DNA from: a virus
Direction: 5' to 3' (one strand)
Length of the DNA stretch: 11,244 nucleotides
Virus genome (UHGV): UHGV-0101776
Part shown: positions 1 through 7,983 of the stretch, piece after piece
Layout of the letters: every line of letters starts with the position of its first letter
How positions within the stretch are numbered: the stretch's first letter is position 1
The notes under the pieces: generated by a model
Told to the model about the DNA's origin: nothing
Database searches by the model: none
The model's input: the letters and a program-made list of their open reading frames with translations, nothing else
Made by a program: the position numbers and the translations under genes

Positions 1-22
1 TAAAGCTGAAAGCTTTCCGGAA

Positions 23-46
23 CCCCCAGCCTAGCTGGGGGTTTTC
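23..46 (+). terminator. Putative rho-independent terminator
   Basis: Perfect 8-bp stem cccccagc/gctggggg with a 3-nt loop (23-41), followed by tttt on the plus strand. Likely ends a plus-strand transcript from outside the window. Confidence 0.45.
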
Positions 47-56
47 TGTGCACAAT

Positions 57-96
57 AAAAAGGCCTGCGATTACCAGCAGGCCTTTATCTTTTTTT
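57..96. terminator. Bidirectional rho-independent terminator at the 3' end of the HNH gene
   Basis: 8-bp stem aggcctgc/gcaggcct (61-84) with an 8-nt loop. It is flanked by an A-run (57-60, a T-run on the minus strand) and by ttatcttttttt (85-96) on the plus strand. The hairpin sits immediately after the minus-strand stop at 85-87. Confidence 0.55.
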
Positions 97-696
97 AACA
101 CGCTTTCGAGTCCTTTTAGATTTTTCCTTAAGATATTCCGCAAGTTTATCCTCATCATTATTAAATTGAGATAAAAGCTCATGCTCGCAATTAAGTGCTT
201 TACTCGCATAAGTTCCATATAGTTTCTTTCTTGCTAGTGCTGCTATGAATGCTGCATCTTCTTTGCTATCGAAATACCCTAACGATATTGTCTTATTTTT
301 ATAACCAACATAAGACTTCCACCTGCCAGTTGTCTTATCCCAAGACACTCCAATCGCACCGGATGTGTTTAACCTATTCCCTACAATGTTTCTTGCATTC
401 TGCTCCTCTGTTGCCAGTCTTAGATTTGAAATCCTATTGTCAAGTCTGTTCCCATTTACATGATCAATAAACTTAGGAGGCCATTTTTTGTATACATAGA
501 ACCAAGCAAGTCTATGCGCATAATACAAAACATTATTTATGCTAATGCATATATAACCACCACTAACACCTCCAGCAATACTACCTTTTACTCTTACTAC
601 TGAATTTGTTTTTAGCCATTTAAATATTCCTGTTTCTGAGTCATATGATAATGTTGACAGAAGCTCATCGTGATCAATTAGTTTTTTTATTCGCAT
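85..696 (-). CDS. HNH homing endonuclease with AP2-type DNA-binding domain
   Basis: 203-aa ORF. HNH motif IDHVNGNRLDNRISNLRLATEEQNARN, followed by an AP2-like segment GVSWDKTTGRWKSYVGYKNKTISLGYFDSKEDAAFIAALARKKLYG. Visibly AT-rich compared with the adjacent helicase gene. No obvious SD before the ATG at 696. Confidence 0.8.
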   Translation of the reverse strand: MRIKKLIDHDELLSTLSYDSETGIFKWLKTNSVVRVKGSIAGGVSGGYICISINNVLYYAHRLAWFYVYKKWPPKFIDHVNGNRLDNRISNLRLATEEQNARNIVGNRLNTSGAIGVSWDKTTGRWKSYVGYKNKTISLGYFDSKEDAAFIAALARKKLYGTYASKALNCEHELLSQFNNDEDKLAEYLKEKSKRTRKRVKKR

Positions 697-778
697 AAAG
701 AATATACTTAATAATATATACAGTAAGAACCATTAGTAACGATAACCCTGCTATCAGCTCAGTGATGTAGATGGTCAT
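674..778 (-). CDS. Small hydrophobic peptide (34 aa), possibly translationally coupled to the helicase
   Basis: The ATG overlaps the helicase TGA stop (TGATG) and is preceded by a strong SD, AAAGGAGG, 7 nt upstream. Product MTIYITELIAGLSLLMVLTVYIIKYILYANKKTN has a single predicted TM helix. Overlaps the HNH start by 23 nt. Below the ORF-track size cutoff. Confidence 0.3.
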   Translation of the reverse strand: MTIYITELIAGLSLLMVLTVYIIKYILYANKKTN

Positions 779-2214
779 CAGAATCCTCCTTTCTTCTTGG
801 ATTGCGGTTCCTCGCGTTCACGGCGGCGCATTTCAGCGGACTGTTGGTCTGTGTCATAAATAGCGCCATTTGCCTGAATGCAATACACCGTGCCGGTATT
901 GCCATGACGATTGAGACGAAGGATTAGTTCGGTTTCACCAGGTGGAACACTGTCATCAAAAGCACCTTCACGATGGATCCCCACCCAATAATCGCAATCC
1001 TGTTCAATCTGCCCTGTATCTCGTGAGTCACTTGGTAATGGGCGTTTATTGGTTCTGCTTTCCAGTGCGCGGTTAAGCTGCGTCAGAAGCACAACAACGC
1101 AATCAAGCTCTTTGGCAAGGTTCTTCAGTCCTTTGGTGATCATGCCGTAAGCAAGGTCGTTGCGATCGGCCTTCTCAGCAGTCATTAGTGTCAGGTAATC
1201 GACCAGAATCATGCCAACACATCCTTTTTCTCGCTTGATTCGACGACTTTCGCTGACGATTTGAGCCAGAGATAATCCCGGCGTGTCGTCGATGTAAAGC
1301 AGGTCGATTTCACTCAAGCGATTGGCTGTTTCGATCGCCCTGTTGAAGTCACCATCGTAATCACCCTGATAGCCGTCATCAGCGTCATTTGTCGCCGGAA
1401 GGTAAAAAATATTCGGGTTAACACCTGACTTCTGTCCTACCAGTTTTTCCAGTATCTGGTCACCGGGCATTTCAAGGCTGAACATCAGAGCGGGCTTTTT
1501 CTCATGCACTGCGCAGTTGATTGCCATCTGGCTGTATAGCGTCGTTTTCCCCATCTTAGGGCGAGCGCCAATGACAAACAGAGAGCCTTTCACCAGACCT
1601 TTCGGTGACAGCATCCTGTCCAGCGATGGGATCCCTGTGCTCATTCCTCGTTGTTCGCCTGACGGGTCAAATCGCTTCTCAAGGTCGCTAACCCAGTCTT
1701 CCATGACCTCACCAAATGAGCGAAGGCCGCGACGCGATCCGGTTTTTGCATGGTCTGTCAGTTGCGTAAAAATCGCCTGAATAGCTTCGTACTTCTGCGT
1801 CGCAGTCATTCCGTTGCGGGAATAGAGCAATTCCGTCGCTTCAGTCATGCGGTTGATGGCGTAGCGTTCCATTGCGGTTTCACGAACCTGCATTGCATAG
1901 GCAACGATGTTTGCTGCGCTTGGCGTGTTCTTTGCGATCTCAGCGATATAAGCAAAACCGCCAACAGACGCCGTTAACGATTTACGCTCCAGTTCATCGA
2001 AAAGCGTCAGGCCATCTACTGGCTTTTGCTCCCGGTGCATTCTGGTTATTTCTTCGAAAAGGATTTTGTGTGGTCGGCTGTAAAATGAATCAGGCTTCAG
2101 CATCGCCAGAACTTTCTGGACGCGCTCACTGCTGTCATCATCCAGAAGCAATCCACCAATCACCGCCTGCTCTGCCTCGATGCTATGGGGCGGCGCATAA
2201 AAATTATCGGTCAT
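778..2214 (-). CDS. DnaB-family replicative DNA helicase (phage P22 gene 12-type)
   Basis: Walker A GARPKMGKTTL, Walker B-like ILVDYLTLM and the DnaB-like LLTQLNR motif. The ATG at 2214 overlaps the upstream initiator stop (ATGACCGATAA) with GAGG upstream. The ORF track's longer form starts at a GTG at 2229; the ATG is preferred. Confidence 0.88.
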   Translation of the reverse strand: MTDNFYAPPHSIEAEQAVIGGLLLDDDSSERVQKVLAMLKPDSFYSRPHKILFEEITRMHREQKPVDGLTLFDELERKSLTASVGGFAYIAEIAKNTPSAANIVAYAMQVRETAMERYAINRMTEATELLYSRNGMTATQKYEAIQAIFTQLTDHAKTGSRRGLRSFGEVMEDWVSDLEKRFDPSGEQRGMSTGIPSLDRMLSPKGLVKGSLFVIGARPKMGKTTLYSQMAINCAVHEKKPALMFSLEMPGDQILEKLVGQKSGVNPNIFYLPATNDADDGYQGDYDGDFNRAIETANRLSEIDLLYIDDTPGLSLAQIVSESRRIKREKGCVGMILVDYLTLMTAEKADRNDLAYGMITKGLKNLAKELDCVVVLLTQLNRALESRTNKRPLPSDSRDTGQIEQDCDYWVGIHREGAFDDSVPPGETELILRLNRHGNTGTVYCIQANGAIYDTDQQSAEMRRREREEPQSKKKGGF

Positions 2215-3094
2215 CGTGTTCACCCTCACGAACTTTCAGGTAGGTATTATCGTTAAGCAGGAAATCAAATCCCTTTTTGTGCCAGACGGTTCCGCGTTGA
2301 TGGTTTGGGCGCTCTTCGAACATCCATCGGCAATTTTCGCCAACGTAGCTCAAATAATTTCTCCAGTCCTGCATCGTGAACCCATGCCCGTCAAGTTGGC
2401 GTGTTATTACTCCGGCTTTGCGCCAGAACGTTCGGATCTGGTTTTTACGCTTGTCATTCAGTGCGCGGATTCTTGGCGCTTCAGGAAGGATTTCGTGGTA
2501 AGCATCGACAACATCCTGACAGCTGACGGAAGGTTTTTTCTTGTCAGACTTTTTGTCTGCTGTGGCACTCTCTAATACGTCAGTATTAGAGATATTATTT
2601 ATATTATTGTTTATGGACAACCGTTGGACAACCGTTGGACAATCTCCGCTGAGAGCCGCGCCATTACTGGTGTTTGCGTTGGACAACCGTTGGACAACCG
2701 TTGGACAATTTTTTGCCTGAAAATCGTCATATTTAACGATTGTAAACAGGCTAAATTTCTTCCCCATCGAGCAAATATTAAGCATCCCTTTCGACTCAAA
2801 AGTCCGTAATAAGCTCCGAACTTTGTTGTCGGGGATGAATGTTTCTCTGACCAGCGACGGGCGTCCAGTTATCATCTGACCGCGATCAACAGTTATCGGC
2901 CCGATATCCGTATTGACGACAGTAGATTCGTGATTAGCCTTGAGGATTAAGTGAAGCCAAAGATGTACTGCCTGAGAGTCCTTATAGAGCCTGCTGTCCA
3001 TAAACTGGCGGTGTATAGAGACATACCCCATACTGGATGCCTCCTGATGTTGTACAGGGTTATGCCTGTAATCAGCTAACTTAACGACGCCCAT
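2204..3094 (-). CDS. Phage replication initiator (lambda O-like role), origin embedded in the gene
   Basis: 296-aa ORF directly upstream of, and overlapping, the helicase gene. Strong SD AGGAG 6 nt before the ATG at 3094. Iteron repeats lie inside the central part of the gene (translated as the repeated CPTVVQRLS), the same arrangement as lambda O/ori. Conserved-looking C-terminal domain (TFWRKAG...GTVWHKKGFDFLLNDNTYLKV). Confidence 0.75.
   Translation of the reverse strand: MGVVKLADYRHNPVQHQEASSMGYVSIHRQFMDSRLYKDSQAVHLWLHLILKANHESTVVNTDIGPITVDRGQMITGRPSLVRETFIPDNKVRSLLRTFESKGMLNICSMGKKFSLFTIVKYDDFQAKNCPTVVQRLSNANTSNGAALSGDCPTVVQRLSINNNINNISNTDVLESATADKKSDKKKPSVSCQDVVDAYHEILPEAPRIRALNDKRKNQIRTFWRKAGVITRQLDGHGFTMQDWRNYLSYVGENCRWMFEERPNHQRGTVWHKKGFDFLLNDNTYLKVREGEHDDR
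2585..2708. repeat. Replication-origin iterons plus adjacent AT-rich region
   Basis: Six copies of GGACAA at 11-bp spacing (unit GGACAACCGTT) in two clusters of three, 2615-2642 and 2681-2708. The clusters are 66 bp apart (6 x 11), so all copies are in helical phase. An AT-rich stretch at 2585-2614 flanks them on the side downstream in gene orientation. Confidence 0.75.
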
Positions 3095-3242
3095 GCTTCA
3101 CTCCTGCTTTGGCTAGTCTGTAAACACCAACAAGGCGCTCTGCGAACGCCCTGTTATTTGCTGCGGCTACCACTAATCCCTCAGGTGAATCAGGGTGTCG
3201 AATCTCTTCTTTTTCCTGGTATTTCTTACGACGTTTTGTCAT
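3078..3242 (-). CDS. Small basic hypothetical protein (54 aa) between cII and the initiator gene
   Basis: ATG at 3242 preceded by AGGAG (spacing 6). Product MTKRRKKYQEKEEIRHPDSPEGLVVAAANNRAFAERLVGVYRLAKAGVKHGRR. The stop overlaps the initiator start by 17 nt. Not in the ORF track (under 60 aa). Confidence 0.4.
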
Positions 3243-3253
3243 AATTACTCCTG

Positions 3254-3330
3254 TGGATTGATCCAGTAATTCCCTCAGAATTGCATATCAATTTGCTTAG
3301 AGTCCCCGGCGGCCACCGGGGATTTTTTCT
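3254..3330 (+). ncRNA. oop: oop-like antisense RNA overlapping the cII 3' end, with intrinsic terminator
   Basis: The segment gatccagtaat...cctcagaa... ends in the hairpin ccccgg-cggcca-ccgggg plus attttttcttt (3305-3330). It closely resembles my recollection of lambda oop RNA in sequence, length (about 77 nt) and position antisense to the cII 3' end. CATAAT at 3240-3245 is a candidate -10 for Po. Confidence 0.6.
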
Positions 3331-3571
3331 TTGTGATTCCATCAAGCGCATACTTAAAAGCCCTACTAATCGGACTGATGTCTGATGCCATTCCGAAAGC
3401 ACACAAGACTGAAGCAATAAATCTCCAGTCCGTTCTGCTTATCTTCGATTCATGACAGCCAATCATCTTTGCCAGACCGCGCTGGGTAAGCGTTGACAGG
3501 TTGATGAGTAAATCTGTTTCTGCGCGATCAACGTCACGCTGGGATAGTTTGCTGTAACTTGTTTGTTCCAT
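3275..3571 (-). CDS. cII: CII-like transcriptional activator
   Basis: 98 aa, with clear similarity to lambda CII in the HTH and C-terminal parts (...KISRTDW...KKKSPVAAGDSKQIDMQF versus lambda ...QISRWKRDW...KKRPAATERSEQIQMEF). Sits immediately downstream of cro and nutR. Confidence 0.85.
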   Translation of the reverse strand: MEQTSYSKLSQRDVDRAETDLLINLSTLTQRGLAKMIGCHESKISRTDWRFIASVLCAFGMASDISPISRAFKYALDGITKKKSPVAAGDSKQIDMQF

Positions 3572-3709: not shown

Positions 3710-3943
3710 TTATGCTGCTGATGCTCTACGCGATACGAACACCAGATTTTCCTTTTTCACAGGTTTATAACCCGTGAAATTACGAGTGGCTTCTTCGATT
3801 GCATTCGCTTTATCTGGGGAAGCTCTTCGAAACCCATATGCAATCTGATCAAGATAGCCAACTGAAGTATTCGCTAATGCGGCGAGTCGCTTCCATTCCT
3901 CACTAGAAGCCTCTTTTCGCCAGCGTAGTAGTTCATTACTCAT
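3710..3943 (-). CDS. cro: Cro-like HTH repressor
   Basis: 77-aa ORF divergent from cI across the operator region, first gene of the operon containing cII. GGAGG SD 6 nt before the ATG. HTH-like segment WKRLAALANTSVGYLDQIAYG. Confidence 0.7.
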   Translation of the reverse strand: MSNELLRWRKEASSEEWKRLAALANTSVGYLDQIAYGFRRASPDKANAIEEATRNFTGYKPVKKENLVFVSRRASAA

Positions 3944-4056: not shown

Positions 4057-4761
4057 ATGGAAAACAAAGATATTCGCAAATCGAATCTGGCGTTTTTGCT
4101 AGATGAGCATAAAAAAATCGCGGGTAACACTAATGCAAGCTTTGCCGATAAGCTTGGAGTTAGCCCTTCTCAACTCACGCAAGTCTCCGGTGAAAAAAGC
4201 ACTCGAAACATAGGGGATAAACTAGCAAGAAAATTCGAAGCCGCACTTGGGTTACCTAATGGGTGGCTTGATTTGGTACATGATGTAACACCAATTGCAT
4301 CATGCTCAGATTCTTTAACTTTTGTCGGTCAGGTAAGAAAAGGGTTAGTGCGCGTGGTTGGTGAGGCAATTCTTGGTGTTGATGGTGCCATCGAGATGAC
4401 CGAAGAGCGCGATGGGTGGCTCAAGATTTATAGCGATGATCCAGATGCCTTTGGTCTTCGTGTGAAAGGAGACAGCATGTGGCCTAGAATAAAATCAGGA
4501 GAATATGTACTCATTGAGCCTAACACCAAAGTATTCCCGGGGGATGAGGTGTTTGTCAGAACCGTTGAAGGACACAACATGATCAAGATTCTTGGCTATG
4601 ACAGAGATGGAGAATACCAATTTACAAGCATCAACCAGGACCACAGGCCAATAACGTTACCTTATCATCAAGTAGCAAAGGTGGAGTATGTGGCTGGTAT
4701 TCTGAAGCAATCTCGTCATCTGGATGACATCGAGGCAAGGGAGTGGCTGAAAAGTTTGTGA
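4057..4761 (+). CDS. cI: CI-type prophage repressor (N-terminal HTH, C-terminal S24/LexA-like autopeptidase)
   Basis: 234 aa. N-terminal HTH region; C-terminal domain with the GDSMWP serine motif typical of LexA/CI self-cleaving repressors. SD GAGGGAG upstream. Divergent from cro. Confidence 0.88.
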   Translation: MENKDIRKSNLAFLLDEHKKIAGNTNASFADKLGVSPSQLTQVSGEKSTRNIGDKLARKFEAALGLPNGWLDLVHDVTPIASCSDSLTFVGQVRKGLVRVVGEAILGVDGAIEMTEERDGWLKIYSDDPDAFGLRVKGDSMWPRIKSGEYVLIEPNTKVFPGDEVFVRTVEGHNMIKILGYDRDGEYQFTSINQDHRPITLPYHQVAKVEYVAGILKQSRHLDDIEAREWLKSL

Positions 4762-7782: not shown

Positions 7783-7842
7783 ATGCATACCAATAACGCT
7801 TCATTCGAGGCGTTTTCGTTATGTATAAATAAGGAGCACACC

Positions 7843-7983
7843 ATGCAATATGCCATTGCAGGGTGGCCTGTTGCTGGCTGCCCTTCCGAATCTTTACTTG
7901 AACGAATCACACGTAAATTACGTGATGGATGGAAACGCCTTATCGACATACTTAATCAGCCAGGAGTTCCCAAAAATGGATAA
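7843..7983 (+). CDS. cIII: CIII (inhibitor of FtsH-mediated CII degradation)
   Basis: 46 aa, MQYAIAGWPVAGCPSESLLERITRKLRDGWKRLIDILNQPGVPKNG. Essentially identical to my recollection of lambda CIII over this length, but lacking the last 8 residues. AAGGAG SD 6 nt upstream. The ORF-track ORF 7783..7983 includes a spurious N-terminal extension. Confidence 0.85.
   Translation: MQYAIAGWPVAGCPSESLLERITRKLRDGWKRLIDILNQPGVPKNG

What the first reader, a model, noticed from the sequence alone, without database searches (positions are those of the whole stretch)
3078..3242. Unannotated small basic ORF between cII and the initiator, overlapping the oop promoter region
A 54-aa ORF with a strong AGGAG SD occupies a gap that is only about 30 bp in lambda. 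Its N-terminus is strongly basic (MTKRRKKYQEKEE) and its stop overlaps the initiator start, so it would be co-translated in the PR operon. The candidate oop promoter lies within it on the opposite strand.
Basis: seen in the sequence. Interest (0 to 1): 0.4.

Follow-up and report, generated by a model that had tools for sequence, protein, structure and literature searches.

The report
Known small phage gene before replication initiator
The small open reading frame is a real, conserved gene (identical to phage HK97 gene 53) that many lambda-like phages carry just ahead of their DNA-replication initiator; it is already annotated in hundreds of genomes, but nobody knows what its protein does.

Summary
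The ORF exists at window 3081..3242 on the minus strand. It is 53 aa, not 54, with an AGGAG Shine-Dalgarno (SD) 5 nt before the ATG, and its last 14 nt overlap the initiator start. It is not unannotated. The protein is 100% identical to HK97 gp53 (PHROG 1331). It is called "hypothetical protein" in 97 phage records and in 561 of 5,426 complete E. coli genomes. Hayes et al. 2012 already described the cII-oop-"orf"-O-P layout.

It is a real protein gene. dN/dS is 0.15 in frame against 1.6 and 2.7 in the shifted frames, and the ORF is intact in 217 of 218 loci.

Its start codon lies inside the extended -10 (TGTCATAAT) of the oop promoter. This is the same translation start that lambda uses for O itself.

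The ORF always travels with the first ~10 codons of the initiator (MGVVKLADY...), whatever the rest of the initiator or the upstream CII-type regulator is. An unrelated 48-aa basic protein (P22 orf48, DUF2740) fills the same slot in other phages.

In my sample both small ORFs occur only in replication modules that bring their own helicase, never with lambda P. Function remains unknown. The most likely role is a small basic helical protein, translationally coupled to the initiator and acting with it. Ordinary, already known, low to moderate interest.

The parts
3081..3242 (-). 53-aa ORF, HK97 gp53 family (PHROG 1331): a small basic protein.
   Evidence: E 1.4e-37, full length; 100% identical to HK97 Gp53. 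dN/dS is 0.15 in frame against 1.6 and 2.7 in the shifted frames.
3248..3252 (-). Shine-Dalgarno AGGAG of the small ORF, 5 nt before the ATG.
   Evidence: A GGAG- or GAGG-type SD is kept in divergent loci.
3235..3267 (.). 33-bp conserved joint shared by lambdoid phages (ACTGGATCAATCCACAGGAGTAATTATGACAAA on the minus strand). It holds the 5' end of oop, the SD, the ATG and the pO -10.
   Evidence: Alignment with lambda and P22. Described in PMC3349717. Position. Matches of Stx1a phages to the window begin exactly at 3235.
3237..3245 (+). pO-type extended -10 promoter element TGTCATAAT. The CAT is the complement of the small ORF's start codon.
   Evidence: An antisense -10-like hexamer lies over the start codon in 121 of 122 distinct contexts. 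The simple two-hexamer scan did not call it because the -35 is weak.
3253..3332 (+). oop-like antisense RNA (about 77-80 nt), antisense to the 3' end of cII. Terminator hairpin at 3299-3326 plus a T-run.
   Evidence: Terminator. The fold has two hairpins, -31.2 kcal/mol, z = -4.2. HK629 annotates the homologous stretch as 'similar to lambda oop RNA'. The +1 position is inferred by alignment to lambda and was not measured.
3081..3094 (-). 14-nt overlap between the end of the small ORF (..HGRR*) and the start of the initiator (MGVVK..).
   Evidence: The same -14 overlap occurs in 206 of 217 loci.
3101..3105 (-). The initiator's own SD, AGGAG, inside the small ORF (codons K-A-G-V-K).
3065..3094 (-). 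First 10 codons of the initiator (MGVVKLADYR). They always travel with the small ORF and form the right end of the cassette.
   Evidence: Initiator N-termini listed. HK97 and Stx phage DNA matches to the window start at 3064 (query position 165 of window:2900-3600).
2204..3094 (-). Replication initiator (O-like, Sf6 gp43 type, 296 aa) with origin iterons inside it at 2603-2720.
   Evidence: PHROG 345, E 6e-85. Iterons.
3275..3571 (-). cII gene, the upstream neighbour.
   Evidence: Pfam Phage_CII, E 2e-31.
3129..3155 (-). 12-bp hairpin in the mRNA sense strand inside the ORF (codons N30-V38).
   Evidence: Selection for the structure is not established.

Best explanation
This is the HK97 gene 53 homologue. 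It is a genuine early gene of the PR operon encoding a 6-kDa, strongly basic protein with a disordered Lys/Arg-rich N-terminus followed by two helices.

It is translated from the same ribosome-binding site and ATG that lambda uses for O. That site is embedded in the -10 of the antisense oop promoter and abuts the 5' end of oop. The ORF ends 14 nt inside the replication initiator gene, so ribosomes finishing it are delivered onto the initiator start (translational coupling).

The ORF plus the first ~10 initiator codons (about 3064-3267) form a portable cassette bounded by two recombination joints. This cassette sits in front of several different initiator bodies and behind several different CII-type regulators.

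Shown: it is a protein-coding gene under purifying selection; its position, overlap and promoter overlap are conserved; it belongs to the replication module rather than to the cII module.

Inferred: the coupling itself, and that the protein acts with the initiator or the phage-encoded helicase, by binding nucleic acid or the initiator, rather than in the lysis-lysogeny decision.
For: Identity:
- PHROG 1331, E 1.4e-37 over 53 of 53 positions.
- 100% identical to HK97 Gp53.

Coding:
- Nei-Gojobori dN/dS is 0.15 over 75 distinct DNA sequences, against 1.64 and 2.71 in the two shifted frames.
- It is still 0.15 after removing loci that had been selected for identity.
- All three parts of the ORF are constrained: 0.18, 0.12 and 0.30.
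- Indels are in-frame, and 217 of 218 loci keep a 52-59 aa ORF.
- Two clades show 8 and 16 polymorphic nucleotide sites with no amino-acid change.

Position:
- The -14 overlap with an initiator is found in 206 of 217 loci. Distant members overlap by -26 and -4.
- The initiator N-terminus is MGVVKLADY-like in nearly all, in front of HK97 gp54-type (PF04492), Sf6 gp43-type and lambda-O-like chimeric bodies.
- The epsilon34 paper notes that lambda O similarity begins at residue 17 (PMC2629481).

Upstream neighbour varies: CII, YdaT or KilAC.

Shared start with lambda O.

Antisense promoter plus terminator: kept in 116 of 122 distinct contexts, including non-homologous upstream genes.

Positional analogue: DUF2740 / P22 orf48 sits in the same slot with an -8 overlap, has pI 10.4, is also under purifying selection (dN/dS 0.25) and is also two-helix.

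Helicase association: 202 of 206 informative gp53 loci are followed by a DnaB-like helicase, 3 by a primase-helicase and 1 is a deletion. None has lambda P. Loci where lambda O starts directly at the joint have lambda P in 38 of 40.

Structure: residues 1-20 have no secondary structure and low confidence, helices at 21-29 and 31-49, mean pLDDT 68.
Against: - I found no direct evidence of expression (no ribosome profiling, proteomics or mutant data).
- The initiator has its own strong SD (AGGAG, 6-nt spacer) and no stable structure sequesters it. Coupling is therefore plausible but not required.
- No homologue with a known function or structure exists.
- The AlphaFold model has only moderate confidence.
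- The helicase association is confounded by module linkage and rests on few independent lineages.
- One locus (L194) carries a copy truncated to 22 aa, so the protein may be dispensable in at least some prophages.
Confidence: 0.6

Rival explanations
1. The ORF is only a translational leader. What matters is that ribosomes run from the conserved lambda-O-type start site to the initiator start. The peptide itself has no function.
For: - Stop-start overlap occurs in every locus: -14, -26 or -4.
- An unrelated ORF (DUF2740) does the same with a -8 overlap.
- Lambda dispenses with any small ORF.
Against: - Amino-acid sequence is under purifying selection along the whole length, including the middle, which overlaps neither the promoter nor the initiator (dN/dS 0.12; 0.15 overall).
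- Length is kept at 52-59 aa.
- The initiator has its own strong SD.
Confidence: 0.12
2. The protein belongs to the lysis-lysogeny circuit, for example by modulating CII or oop, rather than to replication.
For: It lies immediately after a CII-type regulator. Its start is inside the oop-type promoter in 121 of 122 distinct contexts.
Against: - The upstream regulator changes family (CII, YdaT, KilAC). The ORF stays welded, by a 14-nt overlap, to an initiator with a fixed N-terminus.
- Lambda, 434-type and Stx phages with the same cII/oop but lambda O-P lack it.
- Casjens and colleagues group the homologue (epsilon34 gene 49) with the replication region.
Confidence: 0.13
3. It is a host-directed or anti-defence small protein that merely rides in the early operon.
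For: It is small, basic and narrowly distributed: only 26 clusters at 50% identity among 1.84 billion representatives, all from enterobacterial prophages. No housekeeping homologues were found.
Against: - It has no promoter or terminator of its own.
- It is never found elsewhere in the genome. It is always overlapped with the initiator, and the initiator's first codons always travel with it.
- I did not scan it against the PADLOC library.
Confidence: 0.1
4. It is not a gene. The open frame is a by-product of conserved cis elements: the oop promoter, the initiator SD and an RNA hairpin.
For: The promoter covers the first codons, the SD and overlap cover the last ~12 codons, and a hairpin lies in the middle.
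Against: - Substitutions concentrate at synonymous sites in this frame only.
- Conservative replacements and in-frame indels occur.
- Column composition alone explains the hairpin pairing: 87.7% paired against 85.6% in shuffles.
Confidence: 0.03

Closest known systems
HK97 gene 53 product (Gp53) and its homologues, PHROG 1331. Examples: HK022/HK75 'gp53', ES18 gp58, epsilon34 gene 49, and hypothetical proteins of Stx phages and HK/mEp phages.
   Same: The amino-acid sequence is identical to HK97 Gp53. Length, position between cII and the initiator, and the 14-nt overlap are all the same.
   Different: Nothing of substance differs. Here it precedes an Sf6 gp43-type initiator (296 aa) rather than the HK97 gp54 type.
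P22 orf48 / Pfam DUF2740 (PF10872), PHROG 1913
   Same: - Same slot, with the same conserved start region inside the oop promoter.
- Stop overlaps the initiator start (-8).
- Similar size (48 aa) and charge (pI 10.4).
- Predicted two-helix protein under purifying selection.
- Found in front of related initiators and self-encoded helicases.
   Different: There is no detectable sequence relationship: hhalign probability 0.6% and no Pfam hit for the window protein. It travels with a different initiator N-terminus (MSN...). Its helices start at residue 7, not after a 20-residue N-terminal stretch without predicted structure as in the window protein.
Lambda O translation start and the oop/pO region
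   Same: The SD, the ATG and the first 11 nt of coding sequence (ATGACAAA..), the pO -10, the oop body and the terminator are all homologous. The cII-to-ATG spacing is 32 nt in both.
   Different: In lambda this ATG opens the 299-aa initiator itself. Here it opens a 53-aa ORF with no similarity to O beyond Met-Thr.

Membership tests
HK97 gp53 family (PHROG 1331) | Full-length sequence match to the family profile. | tested here: met
   E 1.4e-37, residues 1-53 on profile positions 1-53 of 53. 100% identity to HK97 Gp53 by tblastn.
HK97 gp53 family (PHROG 1331) | Located between a CII-type regulator and the replication initiator, with its stop overlapping the initiator start. | tested here: met
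   Window layout. The same layout occurs in 206 of 217 loci with a -14 overlap, and in HK97, HK75 and HK629.
HK97 gp53 family (PHROG 1331) | Expressed as a protein. | not testable with these tools
   Only indirect evidence: dN/dS 0.15. No expression data were found.
DUF2740 (PF10872; P22 orf48) | Sequence match to the Pfam model or family profile. | tested here: not met
   No Pfam hit at E <= 0.1. Profile-profile probability 0.6%.
DUF2740 (PF10872; P22 orf48) | Same genomic slot and same start region. | tested here: met
   This makes it a positional analogue, not a family member.
Lambda O / Phage_rep_O N-terminus (remnant hypothesis) | Protein similarity to lambda O beyond the shared start. 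| tested here: not met
   DNA similarity to lambda ends 11 nt after the ATG. No Phage_rep_O hit for the 53-aa protein.
oop antisense RNA / pO promoter (the feature said to overlap the ORF) | Homology to lambda oop, an intrinsic terminator inside the 3' end of cII, and a -10 at the O-type start codon. | tested here: met
   Alignment to lambda, terminator at 3299-3326, fold z = -4.2, TGTCATAAT at 3237-3245. No Rfam family matched the stretch at E <= 1. The transcript start was not measured.

The most novel reading that the evidence does not exclude
gp53 and the unrelated DUF2740 protein may be interchangeable small basic cofactors that lambdoid replication modules need when the phage brings its own helicase (DnaB-like or primase-helicase). 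They could help the initiator recruit or load that helicase, or chaperone the initiator through its conserved N-terminal peptide. This would explain why the small ORF is welded to the initiator's first codons and is absent from lambda O-P modules, which borrow host DnaB through P.
Probability: 0.2. Interest if true: 0.55.

Novelty: already known. Interest (0 to 1): 0.27.

Why it matters
As a finding it is ordinary: a known, widely annotated hypothetical gene. It has some value because the gene sits in one of the best-studied regulatory regions in biology and is common; the ORF with its flanks covers at least 80% of the query in 561 of 5,426 complete E. coli genomes, including Shiga-toxin phages. 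It is still functionally blank. If the small protein is a replication cofactor, or sets the initiator level through coupling to the oop-controlled start site, it would be a missing part of P22/HK97-type phage replication. It would also be a possible handle on Stx-prophage replication.

Tried and rejected
- **Homology to anything characterised.** Nothing found in Pfam and NCBIfam, PDB by profile, Foldseek against PDB and BFVD with the AF2 model, or an exhaustive profile search of 1.84 billion representatives. That last search gave only 26 clusters, all short. Two long hits with 8 stretches each were judged spurious.
- **Remote homology between gp53 and P22 orf48/DUF2740.** An eye alignment (R..AE...L...G) looked tempting, but hhalign gives probability 0.6%, so I rejected it.
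- **Remnant of the lambda O N-terminus.** Rejected.
- **Rfam.** No match at E <= 1 covers the oop stretch.
- **Simple promoter scan.** It does not call pO because the -35 is weak. I rely instead on the alignment to lambda and the TG-extended -10.
- **Hairpin inside the ORF.** Pairing is high but almost fully explained by column composition. A codon-resampling control favours structure but ignores relatedness. Left as inconclusive.
- **Gene-fusion evidence.** Only one natural gp53-initiator fusion was seen (L295). No fusions appear among the database hits, so it may be an assembly error.
- **Synonymous-only variation among the 80 IMG/VR loci.** Discarded as circular, because those loci had been ranked by protein identity.
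- **Literature searches.** No functional or expression data for gp53, orf48 or DUF2740.

Full report
**1. Observation.**
The window is a mosaic lambdoid (pro)phage early region read in reverse. On the minus strand it carries, in order:
- a Cro-position transcriptional regulator (3710..3943; PHROG 35, 'transcriptional repressor');
- cII (3275..3571);
- the small ORF (3081..3242);
- an O-like initiator (2204..3094) with origin iterons inside it;
- a DnaB-like helicase (778..2229).

The CI repressor (4057..4761) is on the plus strand. No single phage record covers more than half of the window.

AGGAG lies 5 nt before the ATG. The last 14 nt overlap the initiator start. The protein is 6.1 kDa with pI 10.7.

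An ORF of this size is not unusual by chance, since the window has 78 ORFs of 40 aa or more. The case rests on the evidence below.

**2. It is already known and annotated.**
- The peptide matches PHROG 1331 end to end (E 1.4e-37).
- It is 100% identical to HK97 Gp53.
- tblastn finds it in 97 phage records of Escherichia, Salmonella, Shigella, Enterobacter, Cronobacter and Erwinia phages, nearly always annotated 'hypothetical protein'.
- In RefSeq, 561 of 5,426 complete E. coli genomes carry at least 80% of the ORF plus flanks, annotated the same way.
- Hayes et al. [quoted passage not shown] They name P22 orf48 and the HK97 gp53 homologue and state that lambda 'is naturally missing' this ORF. 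They also define the 33-bp conserved sequence at the oop 5' end and pO.
- The epsilon34 genome paper groups the homologue (gene 49) with the replication region (PMC2629481).

I found no paper reporting a function or expression data.

**3. It is a real protein-coding gene.**
I collected 218 loci holding a relative: 12 from species-representative genomes, about 200 from IMG/VR, and 3 through exact-protein look-ups.

- 217 keep an intact ORF of 52-59 aa, and indels are in-frame.
- Over 75 distinct DNA sequences, Nei-Gojobori dN/dS is 0.149 in the annotated frame, against 1.64 and 2.71 in the shifted frames.
- Leaving out the loci that had been ranked by protein identity gives 0.154.
- Constraint holds in the promoter-overlapping first 12 codons (0.18), the middle (0.12) and the initiator-overlapping end (0.30, with depressed dS as expected for dual coding).
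- One antisense frame also scores low (0.23), which is expected when third codon positions coincide. No ORF of 40 aa or more is open on that strand.

The family is very narrow. There are 26 clusters at 50% identity among 1.84 billion representatives, all short proteins. The named sources are nearly all Enterobacterales, and the few other labels look like contaminated assemblies.

**4. Anatomy of the 5' end.**
Alignment with lambda and P22 shows that the oop body, the SD, the ATG and the next eight bases are homologous. The ATG that opens O in lambda opens the small ORF here.

- The spacer from the cII stop to the ATG is 32 nt in both.
- On the plus strand, TGTCATAAT (3237-3245) is an extended -10 whose CAT is the start codon.
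- Using the lambda oop start as I recall it from the literature (38675), the oop-like RNA would start near 3253, one base from the SD.
- It would end at the terminator at 3299-3326. It folds into two hairpins with z = -4.2.

This arrangement is general. An antisense -10-like hexamer (CATAAT, CATACT, TATAAT, TAGAAT or TAAAAT) lies over or next to the start codon in 121 of 122 distinct contexts. An antisense hairpin plus T-run lies 64-128 nt beyond in 117 of them. This includes loci where the upstream gene is not a CII homologue. I ran no chance control on the -10 count, and AT-rich SD-ATG spacers inflate it.

**5. Anatomy of the 3' end and the cassette.**
In 206 of 217 loci the initiator starts 14 nt before the small ORF's stop. 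Distant members overlap by 26 and 4 nt.

The initiators that follow fall into at least these body types:
- HK97 gp54-like, Phage_rep_O (PF04492);
- Sf6 gp43-like, 296 aa, as in the window;
- a lambda-O-like DNA-binding domain with a different C-terminus;
- an HTH_36/DnaD_N type.

Nearly all begin with MGVVKLADY or a close variant. HK97 and Stx-phage DNA similarity to the window stops at 3064, ten codons into the initiator. Stx1a-phage similarity coming from the other side starts at 3235, the edge of the 33-bp joint.

So the small ORF plus the initiator's first ten codons (about 3064-3267) behave as one exchangeable cassette. The upstream neighbour varies: lambda-type CII (at least 144 of 204 loci with a called upstream ORF), YdaT-like (32 loci, PF06254) or KilAC/ANT. 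The ORF is thus tied to the replication module, not to a particular CII.

**6. A non-homologous twin.**
I scanned IMG/VR for 28 nt of the joint. Of the 119 loci read, four were cut off by the contig end. In the rest the ATG opens:
- a gp53-type ORF in 44;
- lambda-type O directly in about 41;
- P22 orf48/DUF2740 in 27;
- something else in 3.

DUF2740 is 48 aa with pI 10.4 and overlaps the initiator by 8 nt. It travels with 'MSN...' initiator N-termini. It has dN/dS 0.25 (n = 8 distinct sequences) and is predicted as two helices with pLDDT 80. It is not detectably related to gp53 (hhalign probability 0.6%). The same initiator body and primase-helicase occur behind either cassette (L181 and L190).

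**7. Association with helicase type.**
- Of 206 gp53 loci with enough downstream sequence, 202 are followed (after the initiator) by a DnaB-like helicase, 3 by a 626-aa primase-helicase, and 1 is a deletion. None has lambda P.
- Of 23 informative DUF2740 loci, 16 have the DnaB-like helicase. Of the other 7 I read one (L190), which has the same primase-helicase.
- Loci where lambda O starts directly at the joint have lambda P in 38 of 40.

This is suggestive. It is confounded by linkage between the initiator C-terminus and its partner, and it rests on few independent lineages.

**8. The protein.**
AlphaFold2 with a 25-sequence alignment gives no secondary structure and low confidence for the basic residues 1-20, and helices at 21-29 and 31-49. 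Mean pLDDT is 68 and pTM 0.37. Residues invariant in the 25-sequence alignment (window numbering) are Q9, E12, P20, G22, L23, V24, A27, F33, A34, R36, G39, A44, R52 and R53. No fold or sequence match to any solved or predicted viral structure was found.

**9. Most likely mechanism.**
- Shown: it is a conserved protein gene. Its start is shared with lambda O and overlapped by the oop-type promoter. It overlaps the initiator and co-inherits with the initiator's N-terminus.
- Inferred: ribosomes terminating at 3081-3083 re-initiate at or facilitate the initiator start at 3094. This would make initiator synthesis partly dependent on the oop-adjacent start site.
- Also inferred: the basic helical product works with the initiator or helicase.
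- The initiator's own strong SD (3101-3105), and the lack of a structure sequestering it, mean that coupling is not obligatory.
- Rivals are: leader-only, lysogeny-circuit factor, host-directed factor, and non-gene. They are weighed in the rival section. The substitution pattern disposes of the last and weakens the first.

**10. Verdict.**
- Novelty: already known as an uncharacterised family.
- Interest is low to moderate. It rests mainly on the cassette behaviour, the unrelated twin and the helicase association, which together make a testable hypothesis about P22/HK97-type replication modules.

Noticed in passing
window 3129-3155 (minus-strand RNA sense): A 12-bp hairpin (AACAGGGCGUUC GCA GAGCGCCUUGUU, about -17 kcal/mol) lies inside the ORF over codons N30-V38. 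Its G-U pairs fit the mRNA sense strand only. The Ala32 wobble base in the stem is nearly always G, while the Ala34 wobble base in the loop is free. One G-C to C-G swap was seen. Codon-resampled controls fold worse (-4.5 against -9.6 kcal/mol). However, column composition alone explains the pairing (87.7% against 85.6%), so selection for the structure is unproven.
   Followed up: partly
L295 (IMG/VR 3300012248_000001), gene starting at 1501: This is a single natural in-frame fusion. The first 44 residues of a gp53 relative are joined through 6 residues to the full initiator (329 aa). No other fusion appears among the database hits, so it may be an assembly error.
   Followed up: partly
L194 (IMG/VR locus): A gp53 copy truncated to 22 aa, with the initiator starting 78 nt after the premature stop. 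It is the only broken copy seen.
   Followed up: no
window 3065-3094 (minus strand) and related loci: The first ~9 residues of the initiator (MGVVKLADY) are conserved across initiators whose remaining sequence differs. This includes chimeras whose residues from about 17 onwards are lambda-O-like (L158, L181). P22-type initiators behind DUF2740 instead start with MSN....
   Followed up: partly
related loci L001-L295: The small ORF (gp53 or DUF2740) co-occurs only with phage-encoded helicases (DnaB-like, or a 626-aa primase-helicase) and never with lambda P. Loci where lambda O starts directly at the joint have lambda P.
   Followed up: partly
window 3251-3266: CTGTGGATTGATCCAG is a CTG-N10-CAG palindrome at the predicted oop start, inside the 33-bp conserved joint. 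From memory it resembles a LexA-box outline. This was not tested.
   Followed up: no
window 2603-2720: Two clusters of three 11-bp direct repeats (TGGACAACCGT), 66 bp apart, lie inside the initiator gene. They are presumably the origin iterons.
   Followed up: partly
window 7830-7888 (+): A full-length match to Rfam Lambda_thermo, the cIII thermoregulator element (88.5 bits, E 5e-21).
   Followed up: no
window 1-43 (-): A partial match, cut off by the window end, to Rfam STnc490 Hfq-binding sRNA (47 bits, below the gathering score of 56).
   Followed up: no
window 85-696 (-): A 203-aa HNH_3 + AP2 domain protein, a homing-endonuclease-like gene, lies directly downstream of the DnaB-like helicase.
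   Followed up: no
L005 (P22 NC_002371) 32349-32495: RefSeq and PHROG 1913 label P22 orf48 (DUF2740) as 'tail protein'. Given its place between c1 and gene 18 in the replication module, this is very likely a mis-annotation.
   Followed up: no
L011 2432-2467 (-), L013 2428-2523 (-): oop-like antisense units occur even where the upstream gene is not lambda CII. In L011 the upstream gene is YdaT-like. In L013 it is a different 112-aa protein. Each unit has a promoter over the small-ORF start and a terminator just inside or after the upstream gene. L013 has a near-consensus promoter, TTGAAT-16-TATAAT.
   Followed up: partly
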